Below are positions 1 through 20,000 of a stretch of 20,000 nucleotides of DNA, piece by piece (position 1 is the stretch's first letter; each line of letters starts with the position of its first letter). Under the pieces are notes generated by a model. The model did not search any database. It saw nothing but the letters and a program-made list of their open reading frames with translations, and had not been told where the DNA came from. The translations under genes and the position numbers were made by a program. Source of the stretch: Chiloscyllium plagiosum. Taxonomy: Eukaryota. The DNA lies in assembly GCF_004010195.1 (NCBI RefSeq), contig NC_057717.1, forward strand, positions 106,509,517 through 106,529,516, in the 5' to 3' direction.

Positions 1-170
1 GTAATGTGGATAGAGGAATGGCTAACTAATAGAAGTCAGAGAATTACCATTAGGGGAGCCTTTTTGGGATGAAAACCTGTAACGAGTGAAATGTCACAGG
101 GGTTATTGCTGGGCCACAATTATTTACAATATTTATTAATGACTTGGATGACAAAAGTGAATGTACTAGT
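1..170 (+). mobile_element. CR1-clade LINE ORF2 (reverse transcriptase) fragment, decayed
   Basis: Translates to WIEEWLTNRSQRITIRG..VTSEMSQGLLLGP.LFTIFINDLD, matching the CR1 RT motif WL..R.QRV...VTSGVPQGSVLGP.LF.I.INDLD; contains a stop and a frameshift. Confidence 0.85.
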
Positions 171-923: not shown

Positions 924-2280
924 GTAACCAAAGAAAACACATGCAACGTGCCTCAATGACTACTGCCTGGTGGCTCTGACCTCCATCACTATGAAATGCT
1001 TTGAGAGATTAGTCTTAGCTCATATTAATTCTAGCCTCCCAACCTGCCTCAATCCCTTGTAATTTGCCCAATGGTGCAACTGGTCCACAGCAGATGCCAT
1101 CTCCCTAGCCCTATATCCATCCATAGAACATCTGAATAATAAGAATACCTCTGTCAGGTTTCTACTTATTGACTACAACTCCACCTTCAACACTATCATT
1201 ACAACCAAACTAATCTCAAAACTCCGAAACCCAGGTCTCAGTTCCGCCCTCTGCAATTGGATCCTCAGCTTTCTGACCCACAGACCATAATCAGTGAAGA
1301 TAGACAATAGCATCTCCTCCAAGATAATCCTCAACACTGGCACCCTGCAAGAATGCATTCTCAGCCCCTTACTGTCCTCCCTGTACACTCACACTGTGTG
1401 GCCAACTCCCATCTGAACTCTATCCACAAGTTTGCTGACAACATCACCAATGCAAGCCACATACCAAACAATGACAAGACAGAACACAGCAAAGAGACAA
1501 AGTGCTTGGTGTCATGATGCAATGATACAAATCTCTTCCTCAATGTCACCAAACCCAAAGAGCTGATCATTGACTTCAGGAAACAAGGGGGAGGACATGC
1601 GCCTATCTACATCAACAGAGCTGAGGTAGAGATGGTCCGAGATTTTAAGTTCCTAGGAATGATGATCACCAATAATCTGTCCTGGTCAGATATGATGGTT
1701 AAGAAGCCACAACAACACCTTTTCTCCCTCATGGAGCCTCAGGGGATTTGGTGTGCCCATTAGGACCCTCACCAACCATTATAGTTACACCATAGAAAGT
1801 ATTCTATTTGGATGCATAATGGCTTAGTTTGGCAACTGCCCTCCCCAGAACTGTAAGACACTACAGAGAGTTATGTACACATCCCAGTTAATCACACAAA
1901 CCAACTTTCCATCCATTGACTCCATCTACACCTCTCGCTGCCACAGAAAGGCAGATATTATCAAAGACCCTTCCCGCACGACTATAATCTTTTCCAAACT
2001 CTTCCTTAAGGCAGAAAATACAGAAGCGTAAAGACACGTACCAACAGGTTCAAGAACAGCTTCTTCCCTGCTGCTATTAGACTGACGAATGGATCTTTCA
2101 AATTTTAAATCTAAAGTTGATCTTGCTTTTTGTGCACCCTCTTTACAGCTGGAACCTTGTATTCCTTGCTCTGTTCTATCACTTTGTGATCTTTGTATGG
2201 TATGATCCACCTGTACTGCACACAAAACAAAACTTTTCACTGTACCTAGTTACACGTGACAATAATAAATCAAATCAAAA
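924..2280 (+). mobile_element. Rex1/Babar-clade LINE, 5'-truncated, decayed RT plus 3' UTR
   Basis: Translates to [43 protein letters not shown] (FADD motif), KELIIDFRK; ends in AATAATAAATCAAATCAAAA tail; stops and frameshifts throughout. Confidence 0.85.
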
Positions 2281-2294
2281 AAATTCATTACTTA

Positions 2295-2672
2295 TTCCTG
2301 AAGTCCAGAGATCATTCTGGAACCTATGTTGTACTCTCTCCAAGGCCAATATACCCTTTCAGGGTGTGGTGCTCAGACTGCTCACAGTTCTATGTTCCTA
2401 AACCATGTTGACTAATAATCTTGAAATCATGTAATATAGCCATGTCATAATTTCTTTAATAATAGCTTCCAGAATTTTCCCGGTGACAGATGTTAAGCTA
2501 ACTACCTTGTTGTTCCCTGCTTTCCATTTTCCTCCCTTTTTGACATTTGCTACATTCAAATCTAATGAGATTTTGCCTGAATCAAGGGAGTTTTCAAATA
2601 TTAAAAGCAAAAAATCAACTATCTCACTTGCTACGTTTTTTAAGATGTAGGGATGAAGTCCATCAGAATCTG
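2295..2672 (-). mobile_element. CR1 LINE ORF2 fragments
   Basis: Minus ORF 2398-2706 contains DGLHPYILKNVASEIVDFLLLIFENSLDSG..NVANV..KKGG..AGN..VSLTSVTGKILEAIIK, the N-terminal RT region of CR1. Confidence 0.85.
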
Positions 2673-2679
2673 GGTAGCT

Positions 2680-2761
2680 GTCGAGAGTGTGGTGCTGGAA
2701 AAGCATAGTAAGTCAGGCAGCACCCAAGGAGCAGGAGAACCAACGTTTCAGGCAAGAGCCA
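2680..2761 (-). mobile_element. Penelope-like pLTR-derived short repeat, truncated within the hammerhead motif
   Basis: GTCGAGAGTGTGGTGCTGGAAAAGCA..GTCAGGCAGCA..GGAGCAGGAGAA..ACGTTTCAGGC is homologous to 4537-4628, 5429-5549 and 6592-6716. Confidence 0.75.
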
Positions 2762-2789
2762 AAAGGCTGATTTGGTTCGGCTGCCTATC

Positions 2790-3830
2790 TCCATGTCATA
2801 ACATCTGTATAACCTTTTCAATATTTTCTAAGTTTCAATAGGATCACCTCTCAATTTTTGCAACTCTAGAGATCACACACCCAGTTTGTCCAAACTCTCT
2901 TCAGCGGACAGTCCCACTATCCCAGGAACACGTCTGGTGGAATGTAGTTGCACCCTGTCTATAGTAATGATATAGGGAAGGAAACCAAAACTACAGTCTA
3001 ACCAAGCTCCGATACAATTAAAGCAAGACTTCACTACTCATGTACACAAATCTCCTTGCAATAAAGACTACCATTCCATTAGCCTTTCTAACAGCTTGCT
3101 ACTCCTGTAGGTTGGCCTTCAGTGACTTATTGATAAGGACACCTAGGTGCCTTTATCTATCTACACTTTCCAATCTCTTAGCTTTCTCAAAATACTCTGC
3201 ACATCTGTTTCTCCCGCCAAAGTGGATAACCTTATATTTTCCAATTACATTCCATCTGCCATGTTCTTGACCAATCAGGACACCTGTCCAAATCTTCCAG
3301 AAGCTGCTTTACACCTTCATCCCAACACACATTCCCGCTTTGTTTTGGATCAATATTACATTTCCTCTCCCCCTTGAAATCATTGGTCAAGATTGTGAGC
3401 AGCTGGGGCCAAGTTCTGGTCCTTGTGGTTACCCATCCATCCCAGCTGCCAACATGAGAATGACCCATTTATACCGACTCTCTGTTTCCTGTCTGTTTGC
3501 CAATCGGTAATCCTTCCCTCCTATCCCATGCATTTTAATCTTTCTAACCAGACTCTTGTAGGGAACCTCATCATAAGTCTTCTGAAAATCTAAATGTATT
3601 ATGTCTTTTAACTCTCCATTATCAATTGTGTTCATAATATCTTTAAAGTTTCCCATTCGCAAATCCATGTTGATCATATCCAAACAAATTATTATCATCC
3701 AGGTGTCTATTTATCCCATTGCTCATAACAGACTGTGGCATTTTCCTGATTATTGATGTAAGACTAACAGCTGTATGAGTTCCCTGTTTCCTTTCTCTTT
3801 AATAGTGGGGTAACGTATTCTAGCTTTCCA
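2790..3830 (-). mobile_element. CR1 LINE ORF2 fragment, decayed with internal deletions
   Basis: Minus-strand peptides DIIHLDFQKTYDEVPYKSLVRKIKMHGIGG and QLLEDLDRCPDWSRTWQMECN match CR1 RT motifs. Confidence 0.85.
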
Positions 3831-4015
3831 TATGCAGGAATCCTTCCTAAACCTATATAATCTAAGAATATATAACCATCGTACCCGCTACACCTTGTGG
3901 ACAATTAAACATCCCTCCACTAATATGGTCGATGTTAATAATGGGAGAACCCAGCACAGCATTCCAAAGACAAAGGCAATTACAAACATATTTTTGGTTG
4001 AAAAGCCAGAACTTT

Positions 4016-4511
4016 GTTTTTATTCATTCACAGGATGAGGGCATTACTGGCTAGACCAGCATTTACTGCCGAGCCCAAATTGCCTAGAGAGCAGCTTAGT
4101 GTCAACCACATTGCTGTGCATCTGGAGTCACATGTTGGCCAAACCAGGTAAGGATTACCTTCCTTGAAGGACATGAATGAACCAGGTGGGATTTTCTGAC
4201 AATCGGCAATGGATTCATGGTCGTCAGTGCACTCTTAAACCCAGATCTTTTTATTGAATTCAAATTGCACCATCTGCCATGGCAGGATTCATACCCAGGT
4301 CCCCAGGACATTAGGGACATTTAAGTGACTCTTGGATAGGCACATAGATGATAGTACAATGAAGGGTATGGAGGTTACTTTGATCTTAGAATAGGATAAA
4401 AGGTCGGCACAACATCGAGGGCCCAAGGACTGTGCTGTACTGTTCTATGTTCTATTTCCTGTGTCTCTGAATGAACAGTCCAGCAATACTAGCACTGAAC
4501 CATTGCCTCCC
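4016..4511 (-). mobile_element. tRNA-derived SINE (not HE1), split by a CR1 3' end insertion
   Basis: Minus strand begins GGGAGGCAATGGTTCAGTG (A-box-like), resumes after the insert with CTGGGTATGAATCCTGCCA (B-box-like), ends ...TAAATGCTGGTCTAGCCAG...GTGAATGAATAAAAA. Confidence 0.75.
4312..4455 (+). mobile_element. CR1 LINE extreme 3' end inserted in the SINE
   Basis: CATTTAAG..CTTGGATAGGCACAT..GTCGGCACAACATCGAGGGCC..GTGCTGTACTGTTCTATGTTCTAT (CR1 3' UTR with TTCTATG tail repeats). Confidence 0.8.
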
Positions 4512-4536
4512 GTGCTGAGTGGATGATCCATCTCAG

Positions 4537-4628
4537 TTGAAACTTTATTGCTGGAACAGCACAGCAGGTCAGGCAGCATCCAGGGAACAGGAGATTCGAC
4601 GTTTCGGGCACAGGCCCTTCTTCAGGAA
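4537..4628 (-). mobile_element. 92-bp Penelope-like mini-insertion with 15-bp TSD
   Basis: Flanked by exact GATGATCCATCTCAG at 4522-4536 and 4629-4643; carries a hammerhead motif and AATAAA on the minus strand. Confidence 0.85.
4595..4628 (-). ncRNA. Minimal type I hammerhead ribozyme motif, core intact
   Basis: Minus strand UUC-CUGAAGA-A-GGGC(CUGU)GCCC-GAAA-CG-UC/GAA: stem I UUC:GAA, 4-bp stem II, palindromic ACGU stem III, GUC cleavage triplet. Confidence 0.75.
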
Positions 4629-5428
4629 GATGATCCATCTCAGCCTCCTCCTGAGGTCCCCAGCAACACAAATGGAGTGTTCATTAGATTCACTCCACAT
4701 AATAACAAGAAATGGTTGGAGCACTACAAAGGTTAAGGCCCTGATAAGGTTGCAGCAATGGTATTGAAGATGTGTGCACCAAAACTTCCTGCACACCTTG
4801 CCAAATTGTTGCTGGATAGCTACGGCACTGACATCACCCAGCAATGAGGAAAATTGCCCAGGTAGGTCCTGTATATAAAAAAGCAGGACAAATCCAACCC
4901 GGCCCATGACCCTCCTTCAGATCGTCAGAAAATTGATGAAGGGGTTTTCAAAAGTGTGATCAAGTAGCAGCTGTTCAACAATAACCTGTTCAGTGATGCC
5001 CAGTTTGGGTTCCACCAGGGCCACTCAGCTCCTGACCTCATTAAAGCTTTGGTTTCAACATGGACAAAAAAGCTGAATTCCAGAGGGGAGGGGAGAGTGA
5101 CAGCCCTCGACATCAAGGCTGCCTTCAACCGAGTGTGGCATCAAGGAGCCCTAACAAAACTGGAATCAATGGGAGTCAAGGGGCAAACTCTCCACTGATT
5201 GTGGTCACACCTGACACACAGGAAGAAAGTTGTGGTTGTTGGAGATCAGTCATCTCAGCTCCAGGAGTTCCTCAGAGTAGTATCCTTGGCCCAACCATCT
5301 TCAACTGCTTCATCAATAACTTTCCCTCCATCATAAGGTCAGAAGTGGGGATGTTTACAGACGATTGTGCAATATTCAGCATCATTTGTGACTCATCAGA
5401 CATTGAAGCAGTCCATGTTAAAATACAG

Positions 5429-5718
5429 GGAGAAAGTGAGGACTGCAGATGCTGGAGATCAGAGCTGAAAATGTGTTGCTGGAAAAGCGCAGCAGGTCAG
5501 GCAGCATCCAAGGAGCAGGAGAATCGACGTTTCGGGCATGAGCCCTTCCTAACCTGCAATCTTCTTCCTGACCTCTCCGCCCCCACCCCCACTCCGGCCT
5601 ATCACCCCCACCTTAACCTCCTTCCACCTATCGCATTTCCAATGCCCGTCCCCCAAGTCCCTCCTCCCTACCTTTTATCTCATTCCTGAAGAAGGGCTCA
5701 TGCCCGAAACGTCGATTC
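5429..5718. mobile_element. Penelope-like insertion with inverted pLTR pieces and 17-bp TSD
   Basis: TCCATGTTAAAATACAG at 5412-5428 and 5719-5735; minus-strand pLTR piece 5429-5549 followed by a plus-strand C-rich segment ending in a hammerhead motif. Confidence 0.85.
5684..5715 (+). ncRNA. Minimal hammerhead ribozyme motif, core intact, very short stem I
   Basis: UC-CUGAAGA-A-GGGC(UCAU)GCCC-GAAA-CG-UC/GA. Confidence 0.65.
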
Positions 5719-5949
5719 TCCATGTTAAAATACAGCAAGCTTTGGACAATATCTAGGTTTGGGCTGACAAGTAATAAGCTTCATTTACACCATACAAGTG
5801 CCAGATATTGACCATCTCCAACAAGAGAAAATTCAACCATAAACCTTTGACATGCAATGGGTATTACGATGACTGATTCCCCCACTTTCAACATCCTGTG
5901 GTTAACATTGACCAAAAAGTGAACAAGTCACATCAATACTATTCAAAGA

Positions 5950-6044
5950 ACAAACAGCTGCTGGAAATCTGAAACAAAAAAAACACATTTTTGGAGAAAC
6001 TCAGTAGGTCTCCATCTAGGGAGAGAAAGCAGAGTCAATGTTTC
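5950..6044 (-). mobile_element. Penelope-like pLTR-derived repeat, left half of a copy split by CR1
   Basis: GCTGGAAATCTGAAACAAAA..GGAGAAACTCAG..GGTCT..CATCT..GAGAGAAAGCAGAGTCAATGTTTC; sequence resumes at 7698. Confidence 0.65.
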
Positions 6045-6588
6045 CATAAGACCATAGGAGCAAATTTGGCCATTTGGCTGATCGAGTCAGCTCCATCATT
6101 TGATCATGGCTGAAATGTTTCTCAACCCCGTTCTCCTGCCTTCTACTCGTAACCCTTGATCCACTTACTAATCACAAAACTATCTACTTTTGTCTTAAAT
6201 GCAGTGAATGGCTTAGCCTCCACAGCTTTCTGTGGCAATGAGCTCCACAGATTCACAACCCTCTGGTTACAGAAATTCCTCCTTATCTCAGTTCTAAAGC
6301 ATCATTCCTTCACTCTGAGGCCGGTGCCCTCAGGTCCCATTCTCTCCTACTGGTGGAAACATCTTCTCCACGTTCACTCTATCCAGGCCTCTCAGTATTA
6401 TGTACACTTCAATGAGATCCCCCTCACCTTTCTAAACTCCATCAGGTACAGATCCATAGTCCTCTTTACTAAAATGCATATCCTCACACTTTCCCACACT
6501 ATTCCATCTGCCACTTCTTTGCCCATTCTCCTAGCCTGTCCAAGTACTTCTGCAGCCTCCCTGCTTCCTTAATATTACCTCCCCGCCA

Positions 6589-6870
6589 AGTGAAAGTGAG
6601 GACTGCAGATGCTGGAGATTAGAGTCAAGAGTGTAGTGCTGGAAAGGCACAGCAGGTCAGGCAGCATCCAAAGAGCAGAGAATCGACGTTTCGGGCAAAA
6701 GCCCTTCAGCAGGAATGAGCACAGCAGGTCAGGCAGCATCCGAGCTGCAGGAGAGTCAATGTTTCAGGCAAAAGCCCTTCCTGATGAAGGGCTTTTGTCC
6801 GAAACATCGACTCTTCTGCTCCTTAGATGCTGCCTGACCTGCTGTGTTTTTCCAGCACTATGCTCTCGAC
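6589..6870. mobile_element. Penelope-like insertion with three pLTR pieces (two tandem minus, one inverted plus) and three mutated or truncated hammerheads
   Basis: Minus copies about 6592-6716 and 6718-6780, plus copy 6778-6870 (TTCCTGATGAAGGGCTTTTGTCCGAAACATC); imperfect TSD TACCTCCCCGCCA / TACCTCTCCTGCCA. Confidence 0.8.
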
Positions 6871-7332
6871 TACCTCTCCTGCCACCTATCTTTGTGTCAT
6901 CTCAAACTTAGCAACAATGCCCTCAGTTCCATCGTCCAGATCATTAATGTCTAATGTGAATAGCTGTCCCAACACAGAATCTGCGGAACTCCACTGGTCA
7001 CTGGATGCCATCCTGAAAAAGAGCCCTTCCTCCCCTTCTGCCAGTCAGACAATCCTCTGTTCATGCCAGTAACTTGCTGCAACACCATGATTTCTTATCT
7101 TGTTTTACAGACTCCTGTGCAGCGCCCTGTCAAAGGCCTTTTGGAAATCCAGATAGATCAGGTCCCCTCGCTTGCCTTTGTCTAACTTGCCCGTTACCTC
7201 CTCTAAAAATTCTAACAAATTTGTCAGGCCTGACCTCTCCTTGACGAAGCTATGCTGACTCAGTCCTACTTGACCATGCACTCTCAAGCACTTTGCAACT
7301 CATCCTTAATAATGGACTCTAAAACCTTATCA

Positions 7333-7442
7333 GTCAGGCAACATCTGAGGATCTCTTCGGATGCTGCCTTGACTGGCTGTGCTTTTCCAGCACAACACTC
7401 TCCGACTCTAATCTCCAGCATCTGTAGTCCTCACTTTCTCCT
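7333..7442 (+). mobile_element. Penelope-like mini-insertion with short inverted 5' end and 12-15 bp TSD, no hammerhead
   Basis: TCTAAAACCTTA at 7318-7329 and 7443-7454; GTCAGGCAACATCTGAGGA is inverted relative to TCTTCGGATGCTGCCTTGAC; ends CTCCAGCATCTGTAGTCCTCACTTTCTCC. Confidence 0.8.
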
Positions 7443-7697
7443 TCTAAAACCTTACCAATAACTGAGGTCAGGCTATCCAGCTTATAGATTCTGTCTTCTG
7501 CCTCCCTCCCTTATTAAACAGGGGGTGTTACATTTGAACCTTCCAGACTCCAGTGATTCCTGAAAGCTCACCACCAATGCCTCCAGCTATCTCCTTCAGA
7601 ACTGGTCTGAGTTATTTATCCACCTTCATACCTTTTGGCTTCCCTAGCACCTTCTCCTTCGTGATGGCTATTACACTTCTCTTCCCCCTCACGTCCT

Positions 7698-7730
7698 TGT
7701 TTTGGGTCCAGTGACCCTTCTTCAGAACTG
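7698..7730 (-). mobile_element. Right half of the split pLTR-derived repeat with a disrupted hammerhead
   Basis: Minus strand CAGTT-CTGAAGA-A-GGGTC(ACTG)GACCC-AAAACA. Confidence 0.65.
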
Positions 7731-8312
7731 ATTGCAGCATGTCTCTCCTGTTCACTCATCCTAAAAATAAGAAAGGTTTCTGCTTCATGATTTCCACATA
7801 GTGATTAGTTGGCATGATCTCTCTGATTGGCATTACTATGGAGAATGTACCAGGGAACTGCTTTGATTAATTAAAACACCAATGGTGCCTTCTCCTGCAG
7901 AGGCCTGGGCCCTATATATATTTGAATATTGAGTTTCTAGCAAGTATAAGGGAAGCACTTTATGAACCAAACTGATAATAGTGGGTGCAGTCAACTTTCC
8001 CAATGTTACAAGACTCGTAACAGAATGTGTAATGTTCAAGATGGTTCTACAATTGAATAGCACTTGCTGAACAATCCCATGTGCATTGAGAATTCCTATA
8101 ATAACCAGTTTAAAATTAACAGTTGAGTTCATAGTGTCATTCACTTAAACCCACTACAAGCTACATCTATTCATCCACAGGGACCTGTATTCTGCAGGAA
8201 ATAGAAAACTTCCCTTCAATACTGCACCTTTTTTTATATTAACCTTAATATAACAAATATCAGTAATAACTCCCTTGTGAATTATCCATCACAACACATC
8301 AAAGAGTCAACT

Positions 8313-8608
8313 TCATAGAATCACAACAGTGTCCCCATCGAGTCCACAATGACCCTCTGAAGAGCATCCCCCCCCCCCCCCCCCCCCAACCCTATCCCTG
8401 CATTTCCCTAGGCTAATCCACCTAATCTGCACACTATGGTCAATTTTCTGTGCACTGTGGGAGGAAACTGGAGCACCCAGAGGAAACCCACGCAGACACG
8501 GGGAGAATGTACAAACTCCATGCAGACAAATTACCCGAGGGGGGAATCAAACATGGGTCCCTGGTGCTGTGAGGTAGCAGCACTAACCACTGAGCCACCA
8601 TGCTTCCC
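8313..8608 (-). mobile_element. HE1-type SINE with internal poly(C) expansion
   Basis: Reverse complement of TGGCTCAGTGGTTAGTGCTGC (A box) and GGTTTCCTCTGGGTGCTCCAGTTTCCTCCCACAG domain. Confidence 0.9.
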
Positions 8609-8838
8609 TACTTGCTAACTAACCCACAACGTTTTCTCACACATCAGAAAACTGCAGACTGAATACATAGTGGGAAACTTTTCAACTCTTTCTTGTGTCT
8701 TTAGGCATCCATCTCAGAGATAGATGGCTGTGATATTTTTAAGTTCACAGCTTGATTCTGTCAGGAGCACAGCATTCCAAAGGACTAAGTTAAAAATCAC
8801 ACAACACCAGGTTATAGTCCAACAGGTTTATTTGGAAG

Positions 8839-8873
8839 CACTAGCTTTCGGAGCGACGCTCCTTCATCAGGTG
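8839..8873 (-). ncRNA. Minimal hammerhead ribozyme motif, core intact
   Basis: Minus strand CAC-CUGAUGA-A-GGAGC(GUC)GCUCC-GAAA-GC-UA/GUG. Confidence 0.75.
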
Positions 8874-9304
8874 ATTGTGGAGAATAAGATTGTAAGACAG
8901 AATTTATAGCAAAAGTTTACAGTGTGATGTAACTGAAATATTATATTGAAAAAGACCTGGATTGTTTGTTCAAAAACTGCATGAATCCGTCTAAGATTCT
9001 GTAAATCTGTTTTTTAGATTAGAATCAGTCTGACCATTGTGGCACAGACAGCCTCACACAGGGAGCTAACACCCTCAATACATTATCTGGGCCGGCATGA
9101 CACTGTTGTTAAAATTCACTTGAGAATGTAACTTTTAAAAAAAAAATGTGATTTACGTATGAAAGAACTGGAACCAACATGTTCATTCTAAAAGATGAGA
9201 GACTTAACAAACAATCCAGGTCTTTTTCAATATAATATTTCAGTTACGTCACACTGTAAACTTTTGCTATAAATTCTGTATCTTACAATCTTATTCTCCA
9301 CAAT

Positions 9305-16334: not shown

Positions 16335-16843
16335 CAGAGGAACCTCGATTATCCCAATATCAATTATCCGAATATCAGATTATCTGAAGGGGATCTCAAG
16401 GTCCTGATAGAAACATTACATCAAAGAGCTGTTTCAACCCTGATTGCATCTTTTGTTTACAGGTACAGTGACTAAAAACGAACTCAGCTCACTGAAATGC
16501 TGCCAAGAACAGTCCTGGACAGTCCAGGCACCGTCTCTGAATAACTGACCTTCCACCCTCTCTCTCTGCCCCAACTCCCTGGAGTTCTACACAGGGATGA
16601 CCCCTAAACCCCCCTTCCCCAGATAATCTCTCCAACATTGTCCTGTACAGGGCAGAGGTGGAACCTGTCAAAAAGTTGTGTGTTCATGTGCATGTGTGCG
16701 TGTGTGTAGTCTGACTTTTGGTGTATAGTCCGGCTGCCCTGGGGGAGGTCAGCTGGGAAGGCAGGGCTGCAGATGGGGGTGGAATGGTGGGTGGGATGGA
16801 AGGAGGGGTGGGGTTGGGGCTGCAGGGTTGGGGGTGGGCGGGA
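16335..16843. mobile_element. Probable Tc1/mariner-pogo (Tigger-like) non-autonomous DNA transposon, one end only, cut by the gap
   Basis: TA followed by CAGAGGAACCTCGATTATCC, with subterminal repeats ATTATCCCAA/ATTATCCGAA/ATTATCTGAA; the partner TIR is not visible. Confidence 0.55.
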
Positions 16844-17169
16844 NNNNNNNNNNNNNNNNNNNNNNNNNNNNNNNNNNNNNNNNNNNNNNNNNNNNNNNNN
16901 NNNNNNNNNNNNNNNNNNNNNNNNNNNNNNNNNNNNNNNNNNNNNNNNNNNNNNNNNNNNNNNNNNNNNNNNNNNNNNNNNNNNNNNNNNNNNNNNNNNN
17001 NNNNNNNNNNNNNNNNNNNNNNNNNNNNNNNNNNNNNNNNNNNNNNNNNNNNNNNNNNNNNNNNNNNNNNNNNNNNNNNNNNNNNNNNNNNNNNNNNNNN
17101 NNNNNNNNNNNNNNNNNNNNNNNNNNNNNNNNNNNNNNNNNNNNNNNNNNNNNNNNNNNNNNNNNNNNN
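16844..17169. other. Assembly gap (N run)
   Basis: 326 N bases, preceded by a G-rich tract. Confidence 1.
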
Positions 17170-18056
17170 GTGGACAGTGAAGAGGGTTACCTCAGATTAC
17201 AACAGGATCTTGACCAGATGGGCCAATGGGCTGAGAAGTGGCAGATGGAGTTTAATTCAGATAAATGTGAGGTGCTGCATTTTGGGAAAGCAAATCTTAG
17301 CAGGACTTATACACTTAATGGTAAGGTCCTAGGGAGTGTTGCTGAACAAAGAGACCTTGGAGTGCAGGTTCATAGCTCCTTGAAACTGGAGTCCCAGGTT
17401 GATAGGCTACTGACGAAGGCATTTGGTATGCTTTCCTTTATTGGTCAGAGTATTGAGTACAGGAGTTGGGAGGTCATGTTGTGGCTGTACAGGACATTGG
17501 TTAGGCTATTGTTGGAATATTGCATGCAATTCTGGTCTCCTTCCTATCGGAAAGATGTTGTGAAACTTGAAAGGGTTCAGAAACGATTTACAAGGATGTT
17601 GCCAGGGTTGGAGGATTTGAGCTATAGGGAAAGGTTGAATAGGCTGGGGCTATTTTCCCTGCAGCGCTGAAGGCTGTGGGGTGACTTTACAGAGTTTTAC
17701 AAAATCATGAGGGGCATGGATAGGATAAATAGACAAAGTCTTTTCCCTGGGCTGGGGAGTCCAAAACTAGAGGGCATAAGTTTAGGGTGAGAGGGGAAGG
17801 ATATAAAAGGGACCTAAGAGGCAACGTTTTCATGCAGAGGGTGGTACTGTATGGAATGAGTTGCCAGAGGAAGTGGTGAAGGCTGGTACAATTGCAACCT
17901 TTAAAAGGCATTTGGATGGACATATGATTAGGAAGGGTTTGGAGGGATATGAGCCAAGTGCTGGCAGGTGGGACTAGATTGGGTTGGGATATCTGGCCGG
18001 CATGGATGAATTGGACCGAAGGGTCTGTTTCTGTGCTGTACATTTCTATGACTCTA
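17170..18056 (+). mobile_element. CR1 (HER1-like) LINE ORF2 C-terminus and 3' UTR, relatively young
   Basis: Open frame LQQDLDQMGQWAEKWQMEFNSDKCEVLHFG..RDLGVQV..LEYCMQFWSP..LERVQKRFTRMLPGL; ends TTCTATGACTCTA. Confidence 0.95.
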
Positions 18057-19029: not shown

Positions 19030-20000
19030 GTGCTGCACTCCCTTAGCACTGACCCTCCGACAGTGCGGCACTCCTTCAGCACTGCTCATCCGACAGTGCG
19101 GCAATCCCTCATCACAAACCCTTCAACAGTCCTGCACTCCCTCAGCACTGACCCTCTGACAGTGCGGCACTCCATCAGTACTCTCCCTCTGACAGTGTAG
19201 CACTCCCTCAGCACTGACCCTCTGACAGTGCGGCACTCCATCAGTACTCTCCCTCCGACAGTGTAGCACTCCCTCAACACTGACCCTCCGACAGTACGGC
19301 ACTCCCTTAGCACTGACCCTCCGATAGTGCGGCACTCCTTCAGCACTGACCCTCCGACAGTGCAGCGCACCCTCAGCACTGACCCTCCGACAGTACGGCA
19401 CTCCCTCAGCACTGACCCTCTGACAGTGCCCACTCCCTCAGCACTGACCCTCTGACAGTGCGGCACTCCTTCAGCAATGACCCTCCGACAGTGCGGCATT
19501 CCCTCAGCAGTGACACTCTGAGAGTGCAGCACTCCCTTAGCACTGACCCTCTGACAGTGCGGCACTCCCTCAGTAATGACCCTCCGACAGTACGGAACTC
19601 CTTCAGCACTGACCCTCCGACAGTGCAGCGCACCCTCAGCAGTGACCCTCCGACAGTGCGGCACTCCCTCAACACTGACCCTCCGACAGTGCGCCAATCC
19701 CTCAGCACTGATCTTCATACAGTGCCCACTCCCTCAGTACTGACTGTTTAACAGTGCACCACTCCCTCAGCACTGACCATCCGACAGTGCGGCACTCCCT
19801 CAGTACTGACCTTCCGACAGTGCAGCAATCCCTCAGCACTGACCCTCCGACAGTGCGGTGCTCCCTCAGTACTGACCCTCCGACAGTGCGGCGCTCCCTC
19901 AGTAATGACCTTCCAACAGTGCGGCACTCACTCAGTATTGACCCTCCAACAGTGCGTCACTCCCTCAGCACTGACCCTCTGACAGTGCAGCACTCCCTCA
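19030..20000. repeat. 33-bp minisatellite (CACTCCCTCAGCACTGACCCTCCGACAGTGCGG)n, continuing past the window end
   Basis: About 29 adjacent diverged units with no unique spacers. Confidence 0.97.

What the first reader, a model, noticed from the sequence alone, without database searches (positions are those of the whole stretch)
4522..4643. 92-bp insertion that is essentially a hammerhead plus a poly(A) signal, with a perfect 15-bp TSD
Seen: GATGATCCATCTCAG flanks the insert exactly. On the minus strand the insert starts at the first base of ribozyme stem I (UUC-CUGAAGA...), has an intact core with predicted cleavage between 4598 and 4597, and ends ...CCAGCAATAAAGTTTCAA. CpGs are retained, suggesting a young insertion. 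Inference: either a minimal mobile ribozyme unit or a preferred reverse-transcription stop at the ribozyme structure. The plus copy at 6778 also begins at TTCCTGA, so the boundary may be non-random.
Basis: partly seen in the sequence, partly recalled or inferred. Interest (0 to 1): 0.75.

Follow-up and report, generated by a model that had tools for sequence, protein, structure and literature searches.

The report
Dead-on-arrival Penelope hammerhead mini-copy
A 92-base insertion carrying a small hammerhead ribozyme motif is an ordinary truncated copy of a very abundant Penelope-like jumping gene, but thousands of such copies start at exactly the ribozyme's first base, which hints at where the element's RNA begins.

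Summary
GATGATCCATCTCAG occurs exactly twice (4522-4536, 4629-4643) around a 92-bp insert. On the minus strand the insert opens with a complete minimal hammerhead core. Twelve of 12 paralogous copies of the host repeat carry the 15-mer once, so this is an insertion with a target-site duplication.

The insert is identical to at least 9 other fetched copies of one subfamily. The family has 48,333 exact hammerhead cores and 165,276 exact 20-mer anchors in this 3.56-Gb genome. GIY-YIG endonuclease ORF remnants lie just upstream of some copies, there are two alternative 3' ends about 36 nt apart, and fold-back insertions are common. All of this marks a Penelope-like element (PLE).

Forty of 100 anchored copies start within about 5 nt of the hammerhead's first base. 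Genome-wide, 55% of subfamily copies break in the 5 nt before it, against a 7% baseline. There is no excess at the ribozyme cleavage site.

AATAAA is a subfamily variant, not a working poly(A) signal. The best reading is internal initiation of reverse transcription, as published for PLEs, followed by run-off at an RNA 5' end located at helix I.

Earlier notes of this scan had already found this family elsewhere in this genome. The kind is known and this copy is probably inert. The 5'-end peak is a modest new detail.

The parts
4522..4536 (.). Target-site duplication, left copy (GATGATCCATCTCAG)
   Evidence: The 15-mer is single-copy in 12 of 12 paralogs of the host repeat.
4537..4628 (-). 92-bp insert. 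It covers positions 1-92 of the CCTGT subfamily of a PLE-derived hammerhead unit (position 1 = 4628) and lacks the 36-nt tail.
   Evidence: It is identical to 16 oriented hits, which are 9 distinct copies, among the fetched loci.
4626..4628 (-). Helix I, 5' strand (UUC). Only 3 bp are possible here, because A(-1) of the full element is replaced by a flank C.
   Evidence: compared with the long copies.
4619..4625 (-). CUGAAGA box (core positions 3-9)
4606..4618 (-). Bulged A followed by helix II, GGGC-CUGU-GCCC
   Evidence: The loop letters define the subfamilies.
4598..4605 (-). GAAA box followed by C-GUC. ACGU is the palindromic substitute for helix III. The predicted cut is after C4598.
4595..4597 (-). 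Helix I, 3' strand (GAA)
4544..4549 (-). AATAAA hexamer. It is a subfamily-specific variant of AACACA and is not used as a poly(A) signal.
4537..4543 (-). 'Short' 3' end (..GTTTCAA), read here as the proximal start site of reverse transcription
   Evidence: 47 of 100 anchored copies end at positions 86-104, with the mode at 93-94. Compare PMC11167929.
4629..4643 (.). Target-site duplication, right copy
4400..4521 (.). Left flank: an older interspersed repeat that hosts the insertion
   Evidence: It is continuous with 4644 onward in the paralogs.
4644..4760 (.). Right flank: the same older repeat

Best explanation
The insert is a dead-on-arrival cDNA copy made by the reverse transcriptase/endonuclease of a Penelope-like element (PLE).

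Proposed sequence of events:
1. The enzyme made staggered nicks 15 bp apart in an old repeat.
2. It primed on the nick and started copying the element's RNA at the proximal of two internal start sites. That is why the copy ends at ..GTTTCAA and has no 36-nt tail.
3. It copied back through the minimal hammerhead and ran off the 5' end of its template, which lay at the first base of hammerhead helix I.
4. Repair produced the 15-bp duplication.

Shown here:
- This is an insertion with a target-site duplication.
- It belongs to a huge family of minimal hammerheads.
- That family is linked to GIY-YIG endonuclease ORFs.
- The family's 3' ends are bimodal.
- There is a sharp 5'-end peak at position 1 and none at the cleavage site.

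Inferred:
- The peak is an RNA 5' end rather than a polymerase stop.
- That RNA end is a transcription start. The long copies carry a conserved TTTTAT at -33..-28, and TCA|TTCC fits an initiator consensus recalled from memory.
- Each element mRNA therefore carries an entry site for reverse transcription only about 92 and 128 nt from its own 5' end. Initiation there gives only these head-only mini-copies.

This copy has a 3-bp helix I, no partner for dimer formation and no promoter, so it is most likely inert.
For: TSD and empty sites.

Family size: 48,333 exact matches to the 33-nt hammerhead pattern and 165,276 to the 20-mer anchor. The reversed-pattern controls gave 0.

PLE link:
- L051:713-1105(-) hits Pfam GIY-YIG at E=4.3e-5, 24.2 bits against a cut-off of 22.6.
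- It is 73% identical over 105 aa to the ORF directly upstream of the hammerhead unit in L045, on the same strand.
- It is 84% identical over 31 aa to the corresponding ORF in L049.

3' ends of the 100 anchored copies: 47 short (mode 93-94), 45 long (mode 129-130), 8 other. This matches the two adjacent start sites of reverse transcription and the optional 30-40-bp tail described for a PLE (PMC11167929, main text read).

5' ends of the same 100 copies: 40 lie within -5..+4 of position 1, against 2.4 expected if ends were uniform over 377 nt (binomial 4e-38).

Genome-wide exact counts for the CCTGT subfamily:
- Positions 6-44: 12,781. Positions 1-44: 9,771. That is 76% kept.
- Positions 1-39: 9,983. 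Positions -5..39: 4,505. That is 45% kept.
- Positions -5..39: 4,505. Positions -10..39: 4,182. That is 93% kept.
- Positions 32-70: 16,748. Positions 27-70: 15,616. That is 93% kept across the cleavage site.

Signs of an RNA end:
- Short stutter duplications of the first 5-11 nt sit at several 5' junctions (L123 and L127; L006 and L008).
- Head-to-head fold-backs are joined near position 1, and both of their outer ends are 3' ends. This fits the published extension of both DNA strands.

Other points:
- The 60 nt upstream have no stable structure.
- The -50..-1 region is conserved in 20 long copies.
- A 15-bp duplication is typical of the family: 45 of 100 copies have an exact flanking repeat of 12 bp or more, mostly 12-17 bp.
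Against: - No RNA data were obtained, so the RNA 5' end at position 1 and the transcription start are inferences from DNA copies alone.
- The TATA-like and initiator-like motifs are weak and were matched from memory. An older subfamily (L045, L049, L075) lacks the TTTTAT.
- No full-length element with a reverse-transcriptase ORF was recovered. Seven of the 8 candidate ORFs gave no Pfam hit.
- Rfam finds no hammerhead, and self-cleavage is untested.
- BLAST end points can overrun by a few nt. Two of the 40 copies (L056, L083) abut runs of N, and L077 and L078 are duplicates of one another.
- The 100 copies all come from the first 2.7 Mb of one contig, plus strand only.
- In the published anole element the hammerhead sits at the start of the ORF. 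Here an ATG in the older CUGAUGA variant opens only a 17-codon frame, so the layouts may differ.
- No orthologous empty site was seen.
Confidence: 0.6

Rival explanations
1. Minimal mobile ribozyme unit. The 92/128-nt hammerhead-headed sequence is itself a non-autonomous retroelement, SINE-like or retrozyme-like. Its own transcripts are the templates, and it borrows the PLE enzyme.
For: Identical 92-bp units with different target-site duplications occur at other loci: L001/L032 and L051. About two thirds of CCTGT copies that hold positions 6-44 do not reach -5. A preprint argues that animal retrozymes derive from PLE pLTRs (10.64898/2026.07.22.740005; abstract and first part of results read).
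Against: No promoter is evident inside the unit, though this was by inspection only. Short copies are letter-identical to long copies that continue into the conserved upstream region, so no separate lineage is visible. The short form ends at the start site of reverse transcription and lacks everything downstream, which the anole enzyme needs for binding (PMC11167929). There are no tandem arrays, and unit boundaries do not fall at the cleavage site as a circular-RNA route would predict.
Confidence: 0.12
2. Preferred polymerase stop. The template RNA continues upstream, but the reverse transcriptase dissociates or switches template just after traversing the hammerhead, for example because of bound element protein or ribozyme folding.
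For: The break point coincides with the edge of a structured, protein-assisted RNA motif (PMC11167929). Template-switch signatures, stutters and fold-backs, occur there.
Against: A roadblock should stop the enzyme on the 3' side of the structure, not after it has been copied. The region upstream of position 1 is unstructured. [quoted passage not shown] In addition, 26 of 100 copies do read through.
Confidence: 0.13
3. Hammerhead self-cleavage defines the template, so copies derive from ribozyme-processed RNA.
For: This is the proposed role of PLE hammerheads (PMC4209133, discussion read).
Against: The copy starts 31 nt upstream of the cut site. Only 3 of 100 copies start at positions 32-33. 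Genome-wide, 93% of copies continue across the cut site, which equals the baseline. The published work also found that unprocessed RNA is the main template.
Confidence: 0.02
4. Random 5' truncation, with the coincidence at the ribozyme edge being chance.
For: 5' truncation is common in PLEs (PMC8557442, passages read).
Against: 40 of 100 copies fall within 9 positions (P about 4e-38). The genome-wide loss is 55% in one 5-nt step against 7% in the neighbouring steps.
Confidence: 0.01

Closest known systems
Minimal hammerheads (min-HHR) in the pseudo-LTRs of metazoan Penelope-like elements (Cervera & De la Pena 2014, PMC4209133; parts 1-2 of 4 read)
   Same: CUGANGA and GAAA boxes are present. 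There is an unpaired nucleotide between core positions 9 and 10.1, a G10.1-C11.1 pair and a palindromic ACGU in place of helix III. Helix I is short. Numbers are massive, mostly single motifs, with some close pairs on opposite strands. Members group into consensus families.
   Different: Helix II is only 4 bp here, against 6-8 bp in the cases that paper describes. Copy number is far higher: 48,333 exact cores against about 2,000-9,000 reported per genome. The paper does not report where the truncated copies begin.
Internal initiation of reverse transcription and the 'tail' of the anole PLE PAc (Frangieh et al. 2024, PMC11167929; main text read)
   Same: There are two alternative 3' ends about 36 nt apart, about 60 and 97 nt downstream of the hammerhead cut site. 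An AC-rich stretch lies just before the proximal end. Both DNA strands are extended, giving fold-backs. Unprocessed RNA is the template.
   Different: In PAc the ORF starts inside the hammerhead. Here no long ORF starts there, and the unit lies about 30-200 nt after the end of the endonuclease ORF. The target here is not AT-rich or ATT. The 5'-end peak at helix I is not described in the text I read.
Animal non-LTR retrozymes (Li, Clavereau & Pollet 2026 preprint, 10.64898/2026.07.22.740005; abstract and first part of results read)
   Same: These are hammerhead-bearing non-autonomous sequences related to PLE pLTRs, and dispersed 'monomers' are interpreted as dead offspring.
   Different: Retrozymes are tandem repeats thought to pass through self-cleaved circular RNA. 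This copy is a single unit with a target-site duplication, and its ends are not at the cleavage site.
5'-truncated and inverted ('twin-priming') insertions of LINE-1
   Same: Insertion is by target-primed reverse transcription and gives dead-on-arrival copies with target-site duplications and inversions.
   Different: There is no poly(A) tail, initiation is internal, and there is a sharp preferred 5' end instead of a broad spread.

Membership tests
PLE minimal hammerhead (min-HHR) | Conserved core boxes CUGANGA ... GAAA and an NUH cleavage triplet | tested here: met
   CUGAAGA, GAAA and GUC at 4625-4598 on the minus strand.
PLE minimal hammerhead (min-HHR) | [quoted passage not shown] | tested here: met
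   A, then GGGC/GCCC. The stem is invariant and the loop varies among subfamilies. No covariation is available.
PLE minimal hammerhead (min-HHR) | No helix III hairpin; palindromic positions 15.2-16.2 that allow a dimer | tested here: met
   A-C-G-U around the cut site. A cofold of two copies did not return the hammerhead dimer as the minimum-energy structure.
PLE minimal hammerhead (min-HHR) | Helix I of about 4-5 bp | tested here: inconclusive
   Long CCTGT copies can form AUUC/GAAU (4 bp). This copy can form 3 bp, because the flank supplies C at -1.
PLE minimal hammerhead (min-HHR) | Self-cleavage | not testable with these tools
   Needs an in-vitro or in-vivo assay. Published min-HHRs cleave poorly and only as dimers (PMC4209133).
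Penelope-like element insertion | GIY-YIG endonuclease ORF in the parent element | tested here: met
   Pfam GIY-YIG hit in 1 of 8 ORFs tested. Its homologues lie directly upstream of hammerhead units on the same strand in L045 and L049. This copy has none.
Penelope-like element insertion | Telomerase-like reverse-transcriptase ORF | tested here: inconclusive
   Candidate ORFs near the units (L020, L048) gave no Pfam family. No full-length element was recovered.
Penelope-like element insertion | Optional 30-40-bp tail, that is, two alternative 3' ends | tested here: met
   47 short and 45 long ends among 100 copies, with modes 36 nt apart.
Penelope-like element insertion | Frequent 5' truncation and adjacent inverted 5'-truncated copies | tested here: met
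   Window examples are 5427-5721 and 6718-6860.
Rfam hammerhead families | Score at or above the family threshold | tested here: not met
   0 matches at gathering score. No hammerhead among the 8 matches at E<=10 over 4300-7300.
Non-LTR retrozyme | Head-to-tail tandem units with unit ends at the cleavage site | tested here: not met
   This is a single unit with a target-site duplication. There is no excess of copy ends at the cut site.
SINE | Internal RNA polymerase III promoter, and an A-rich or LINE-derived tail | not tested
   By inspection only: no A/B boxes were recognised and there is no A-tail.

The most novel reading that the evidence does not exclude
The hammerhead-headed 92/128-nt RNA is a discrete RNA species with its own 5' end at helix I and an entry site for reverse transcription at its 3' side, and it is the preferred template of the PLE enzyme. 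On this reading it is a minimal 'head-only' non-autonomous retroelement that outnumbers its parent. The massive solo minimal-hammerhead populations of animal genomes would then be its products rather than randomly truncated PLEs.
Probability: 0.15. Interest if true: 0.7.

Novelty: new member of a known kind. Interest (0 to 1): 0.4.

Why it matters
Minimal hammerheads in Penelope-like elements have been known since 2014, but their role is unresolved, and it has not been explained why animal genomes hold so many solitary copies. In this genome the copies start very preferentially at the first base of the ribozyme and never preferentially at its cut site. Together with the published internal initiation of reverse transcription, this gives a simple, testable account. 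On that account, most retrotransposition events copy only the stretch between the RNA's 5' end and a start site about 92 or 128 nt downstream. It also argues that ribozyme cleavage does not make the template. For this locus itself nothing follows: the copy is an inert fragment inside an old repeat.

Tried and rejected
- Rfam, at gathering score and at E<=10, found no hammerhead. The only hits were sub-threshold miRNA-like matches on the fold-back at 6750-6816.
- A whole-genome DNA search with the 92-mer returned nothing, because very common words are skipped. I used pattern counts instead.
- All-against-all BLAST of the anchored copies was confounded by shared fold-backs. I replaced it with BLAST against 10 linear reference copies.
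- Orthologous or polymorphic empty site: 24 runs were listed and no RNA holder was listed. I laid 4 runs, all of them Logan contigs: two of the window's species and one each of two related organisms.
  - The stretch is so repetitive that contigs break at the insert.
  - The right-flank contigs all begin at 4636. They show 0 other letters in the same species, 9 of 369 in organism B and 17 of 353 in organism C.
  - One same-species contig spans the left junction (4432-4556).
  - No contig across an empty site was among the rows shown (15 of 1,694 joints). The test gave no verdict.
- Whole-genome Pfam GIY-YIG search: only 150 of 14,403 candidates were scored, with one weak match. It was not informative.
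- A PDB sequence search with the endonuclease ORF found nothing relevant.
- RNA cofold of two copies did not recover the hammerhead dimer as the minimum-energy structure, so it is not used.
- A splice-acceptor reading of the boundary, prompted by the D. virilis intron that ends at helix I (PMC4209133), was rejected. The bases before position 1 are CA, not AG, and the target-site duplications abut position 1 directly.
- Four literature searches listed no paper reporting a 5'-end peak at the hammerhead's first base. Supplementary figures of PMC11167929, which show coverage of genomic copies, were not seen and may bear on this.

Full report
**1. The observation.**
The window lies at C8:106,509,517-106,529,516 of a 3.56-Gb assembly. 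Earlier notes of this scan call the genome shark-like; I did not check the taxon.

GATGATCCATCTCAG stands at 4522-4536 and 4629-4643, around a 92-bp insert at 4537-4628. These are the only two matches in the window at up to 2 mismatches, and 0 of 200 shuffles give two.

I number the insert on the minus strand from its first T (4628 = position 1). It reads UUC, CUGAAGA, a bulged A, GGGC-CUGU-GCCC, GAAA, C, GUC, then GAAUCUCC. The insert ends ...CAGCAATAAAGTTTCAA. Its three CpGs are intact.

Rfam calls no hammerhead, either at gathering score or at E<=10 over 4300-7300. This is expected for a motif with no helix III hairpin, but it means the call rests on the conserved boxes alone.

**2. It is an insertion.**
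The host sequence is itself an older repeat. The stretch 4629-4664 has 426 matches at up to 3 mismatches in the genome. I fetched 12 of these paralogs. All 12 carry the 15-mer once, continuous on both sides. In L134 and L136 the ten bases before it read gtgctgagtg and atgctgagtg, as at 4512-4521 in the window. These are paralogous empty sites.

An orthologous empty site could not be obtained. The four laid runs are contig sets that break at the repeat.

**3. What family it belongs to.**
- The 33-nt pattern TTCCTGAAGAAGGGC-NNNN-GCCCGAAACGTCGA occurs 48,333 times in the genome. The reversed control gives 0.
- A 20-mer from positions 48-67 occurs 165,276 times.
- Subfamilies differ in the helix II loop.
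- The insert belongs to the CCTGT subfamily. It is letter-identical over all 92 bp to 16 oriented hits, which are 9 distinct copies, among the fetched loci.
- Those identical copies include ones that continue upstream into a conserved region and ones that continue 36 nt further downstream.
- The upstream similarity among long copies reaches at most about 330 nt.
- In that upstream region of some copies lie remnants of a GIY-YIG endonuclease ORF. One ORF hits Pfam GIY-YIG (1 of 8 ORFs tested). It is 73% identical over 105 aa to the ORF immediately upstream of the hammerhead unit of L045, on the same strand. It is 84% identical over 31 aa to the one in L049.

No reverse-transcriptase domain was confirmed.

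The features match the minimal hammerheads of Penelope-like elements in PMC4209133 (parts 1-2 read). They are the bulged nucleotide after position 9, the G10.1-C11.1 pair, the palindromic ACGU and the short helix I.

**4. The 3' end.**
Of the first 100 anchored copies on contig C1, 47 end at positions 86-104 (mode 93-94). Another 45 end at 120-140 (mode 129-130), and 8 end elsewhere. The finding's copy has the short end.

This is the optional 30-40-bp 'tail' of PLEs (PMC8557442, passages read). Frangieh et al. (PMC11167929, main text read) showed that the tail is the stretch between two adjacent internal start sites of reverse transcription.

AATAAA is the CCTGT spelling of a stretch that reads AACACA in the other subfamilies. 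The short-to-long split is 6:8 in CCTGT and 41:37 in the rest. No copy has an A-tail. The hexamer therefore does not act as a poly(A) signal that sets this end.

**5. The 5' end.**
I compared the same 100 copies with ten linear reference copies (binned).

| 5' end position | Copies (of 100) |
|---|---|
| -5..+4 | 40 |
| 5-12 | 14 |
| 13-47 | 20 (3 of them at the cleavage site, 32-33) |
| continue upstream, -7 to -330 | 26 |

A uniform spread over 377 nt would put 2.4 copies in the first class (binomial about 4e-38).

Caveats:
- BLAST ends can overrun by a few bases.
- L056 and L083 abut runs of N.
- L077 and L078 are duplicates of one another.
- All 100 copies come from 2.7 Mb of one strand of one contig.

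In the separate set anchored on the hammerhead itself, 18 of 32 oriented hits break exactly at position 1 by eye, and 14 continue.

Genome-wide exact counts for the CCTGT subfamily remove the sampling worry.

| Step tested | Count without the 5 nt | Count with the 5 nt | Kept |
|---|---|---|---|
| Positions 1-5 | 12,781 (6-44) | 9,771 (1-44) | 76% |
| Positions -5..-1 | 9,983 (1-39) | 4,505 (-5..39) | 45% |
| Positions -10..-6 | 4,505 (-5..39) | 4,182 (-10..39) | 93% |
| Positions 27-31 (across the cleavage site) | 16,748 (32-70) | 15,616 (27-70) | 93% |

The boundary at the ribozyme's first base is thus a sharp, genome-wide feature. The cleavage site is not a boundary at all.

**6. What lies beyond the break.**
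About half of the breaks abut unique DNA. The rest abut an inverted copy of the same unit.

Exact flanking repeats of 9 bp or more were found for 60 of 100 copies, and of 12 bp or more for 45, mostly 12-17 bp. A few, such as L057, L090 and L121, are element-internal repeats and not duplications. The finding's 15 bp is therefore typical.

In the fold-backs the duplication surrounds the whole structure. Both outer ends are 3' ends, short or long. The two arms meet head-to-head near position 1, with a second cluster near 9-15. This fits the published finding that the PLE enzyme cuts and extends both DNA strands.

Several simple junctions carry a short stutter of the first nucleotides before position 1:
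- CCTGAAAA in L123
- CTGAA in L127
- CCTGATGA in L006
- GGCTAATGCCC in L008

Other 92-bp CCTGT units with their own duplications exist at L001/L032 and L051.

**7. Mechanism.**
The enzyme has copied the complete hammerhead before the copy ends, so the ribozyme is not a block in front of the polymerase. The 60 nt upstream are almost unstructured (-1.7 to -4.6 kcal/mol). In vitro, the anole enzyme's products shorten when the template's 5' end is shortened, so it runs to the end of the RNA through its hammerhead.

Stutters and head-to-head joins are what template ends produce. I therefore read position 1 as the 5' end of the commonest template RNA.

Its origin is inferred. In 20 long copies the -50..-1 region is conserved, with TTTTAT at -33..-28 and TCA|TTCC at the boundary. 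That resembles a TATA-like element and an initiator. The consensus motifs are recalled from memory, not tested. PLE transcription is reported to start inside the pLTR (PMC8557442, passages read).

If so, every element mRNA carries the start sites for reverse transcription about 92 and 128 nt from its own 5' end. Initiation there yields only head-only mini-copies such as this one. Longer copies would need the same sites further downstream on a read-through transcript.

**8. Rivals.**
- A self-propagating minimal unit is not excluded. Its weaknesses are that short and long copies are identical, no internal promoter is seen, and the short form lacks everything downstream of the start site.
- A polymerase stop is disfavoured for the reasons given in section 7.
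- Templates made by ribozyme cleavage, and chance, are contradicted by the counts.

**9. This locus.**
Helix I can form only 3 bp here, because the flank supplies C where long copies have A(-1). No partner motif for a dimer is adjacent, and no promoter came with the copy. It is most likely inert.

**10. Known or new.**
Minimal hammerheads in PLEs, solitary truncated copies, inverted partners, the tail and internal initiation are all published. Earlier notes of this scan (e1-7788743, e1-7788964, e1-7788970) had already filed this repeat family in this genome as PLE tail-end fragments.

In four searches and in the texts I read, I did not find a statement that truncated copies begin preferentially at the hammerhead's first base, or that they avoid the cleavage site. 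The supplementary figures of PMC11167929 were not seen.

Verdict: a new member of a known kind, with a modest, testable new detail.

Noticed in passing
window 5416-5735: A second insertion of the same family (CTCAT subfamily), flanked by a 14-16-bp duplication, (CC)ATGTTAAAATACAG. It consists of a minus-strand arm covering positions 9 to about 128 with the long tail (5430-5550). This is joined to a plus-strand piece covering about -130 to 39 (5551-5721). The two share 31 nt. The layout resembles twin priming, and its right end is not a normal 3' end.
   Followed up: partly
window 6592-6860: A minus-strand copy at 6592-6715 has its core mutated to CUGCUGA. Next to it is a fold-back at 6718-6860 whose near-perfect hairpin gives sub-threshold miRNA-like Rfam hits (mir-722, 33.7 bits against a threshold of 81).
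   Followed up: partly
window 2688-2760 (-) and 7353-7441 (+): Two further 5'-truncated fragments of the family. Their BLAST matches begin at about unit position 13-19 and about position 48, respectively.
   Followed up: no
L123, L127, L006, L008 (5' junctions): Short stutter duplications of the first 5-11 nt of the unit lie between the target-site duplication and position 1. They look like template slippage or jumping at an RNA end.
   Followed up: partly
CCTGT subfamily against the others, unit position 34: CCTGT copies have A34, which lets U1 pair, so helix I is AUUC/GAAU. The other young subfamilies have U34, giving a U-U mismatch. This may be a helix I-strengthening change in the youngest-looking subfamily.
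   Followed up: no
L049:1026-1460: In an older CUGAUGA-type subfamily, the decayed endonuclease reading frame stays open right up to the start of the hammerhead. The ORF end and the ribozyme may therefore abut in that lineage.
   Followed up: no
G000:C1:6321170-6326994 (not fetched): Three exact hammerhead cores lie on the same strand, 2,976 and 2,848 bp apart. This is a candidate tandem array of full-length elements.
   Followed up: no
window 19086-19751: A GC-rich stretch (0.59) has long open frames on both strands that encode a repeating peptide of the type RVSAEGVPHC. It looks like a minisatellite.
   Followed up: no
window about 16860-17180: The window holds 326 N. From the X-runs in the ORF table they lie at about 16860-17180. 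They interrupt a LINE-like reverse-transcriptase frame at 16729-17670 (+). The LINE label is recalled, not tested.
   Followed up: no
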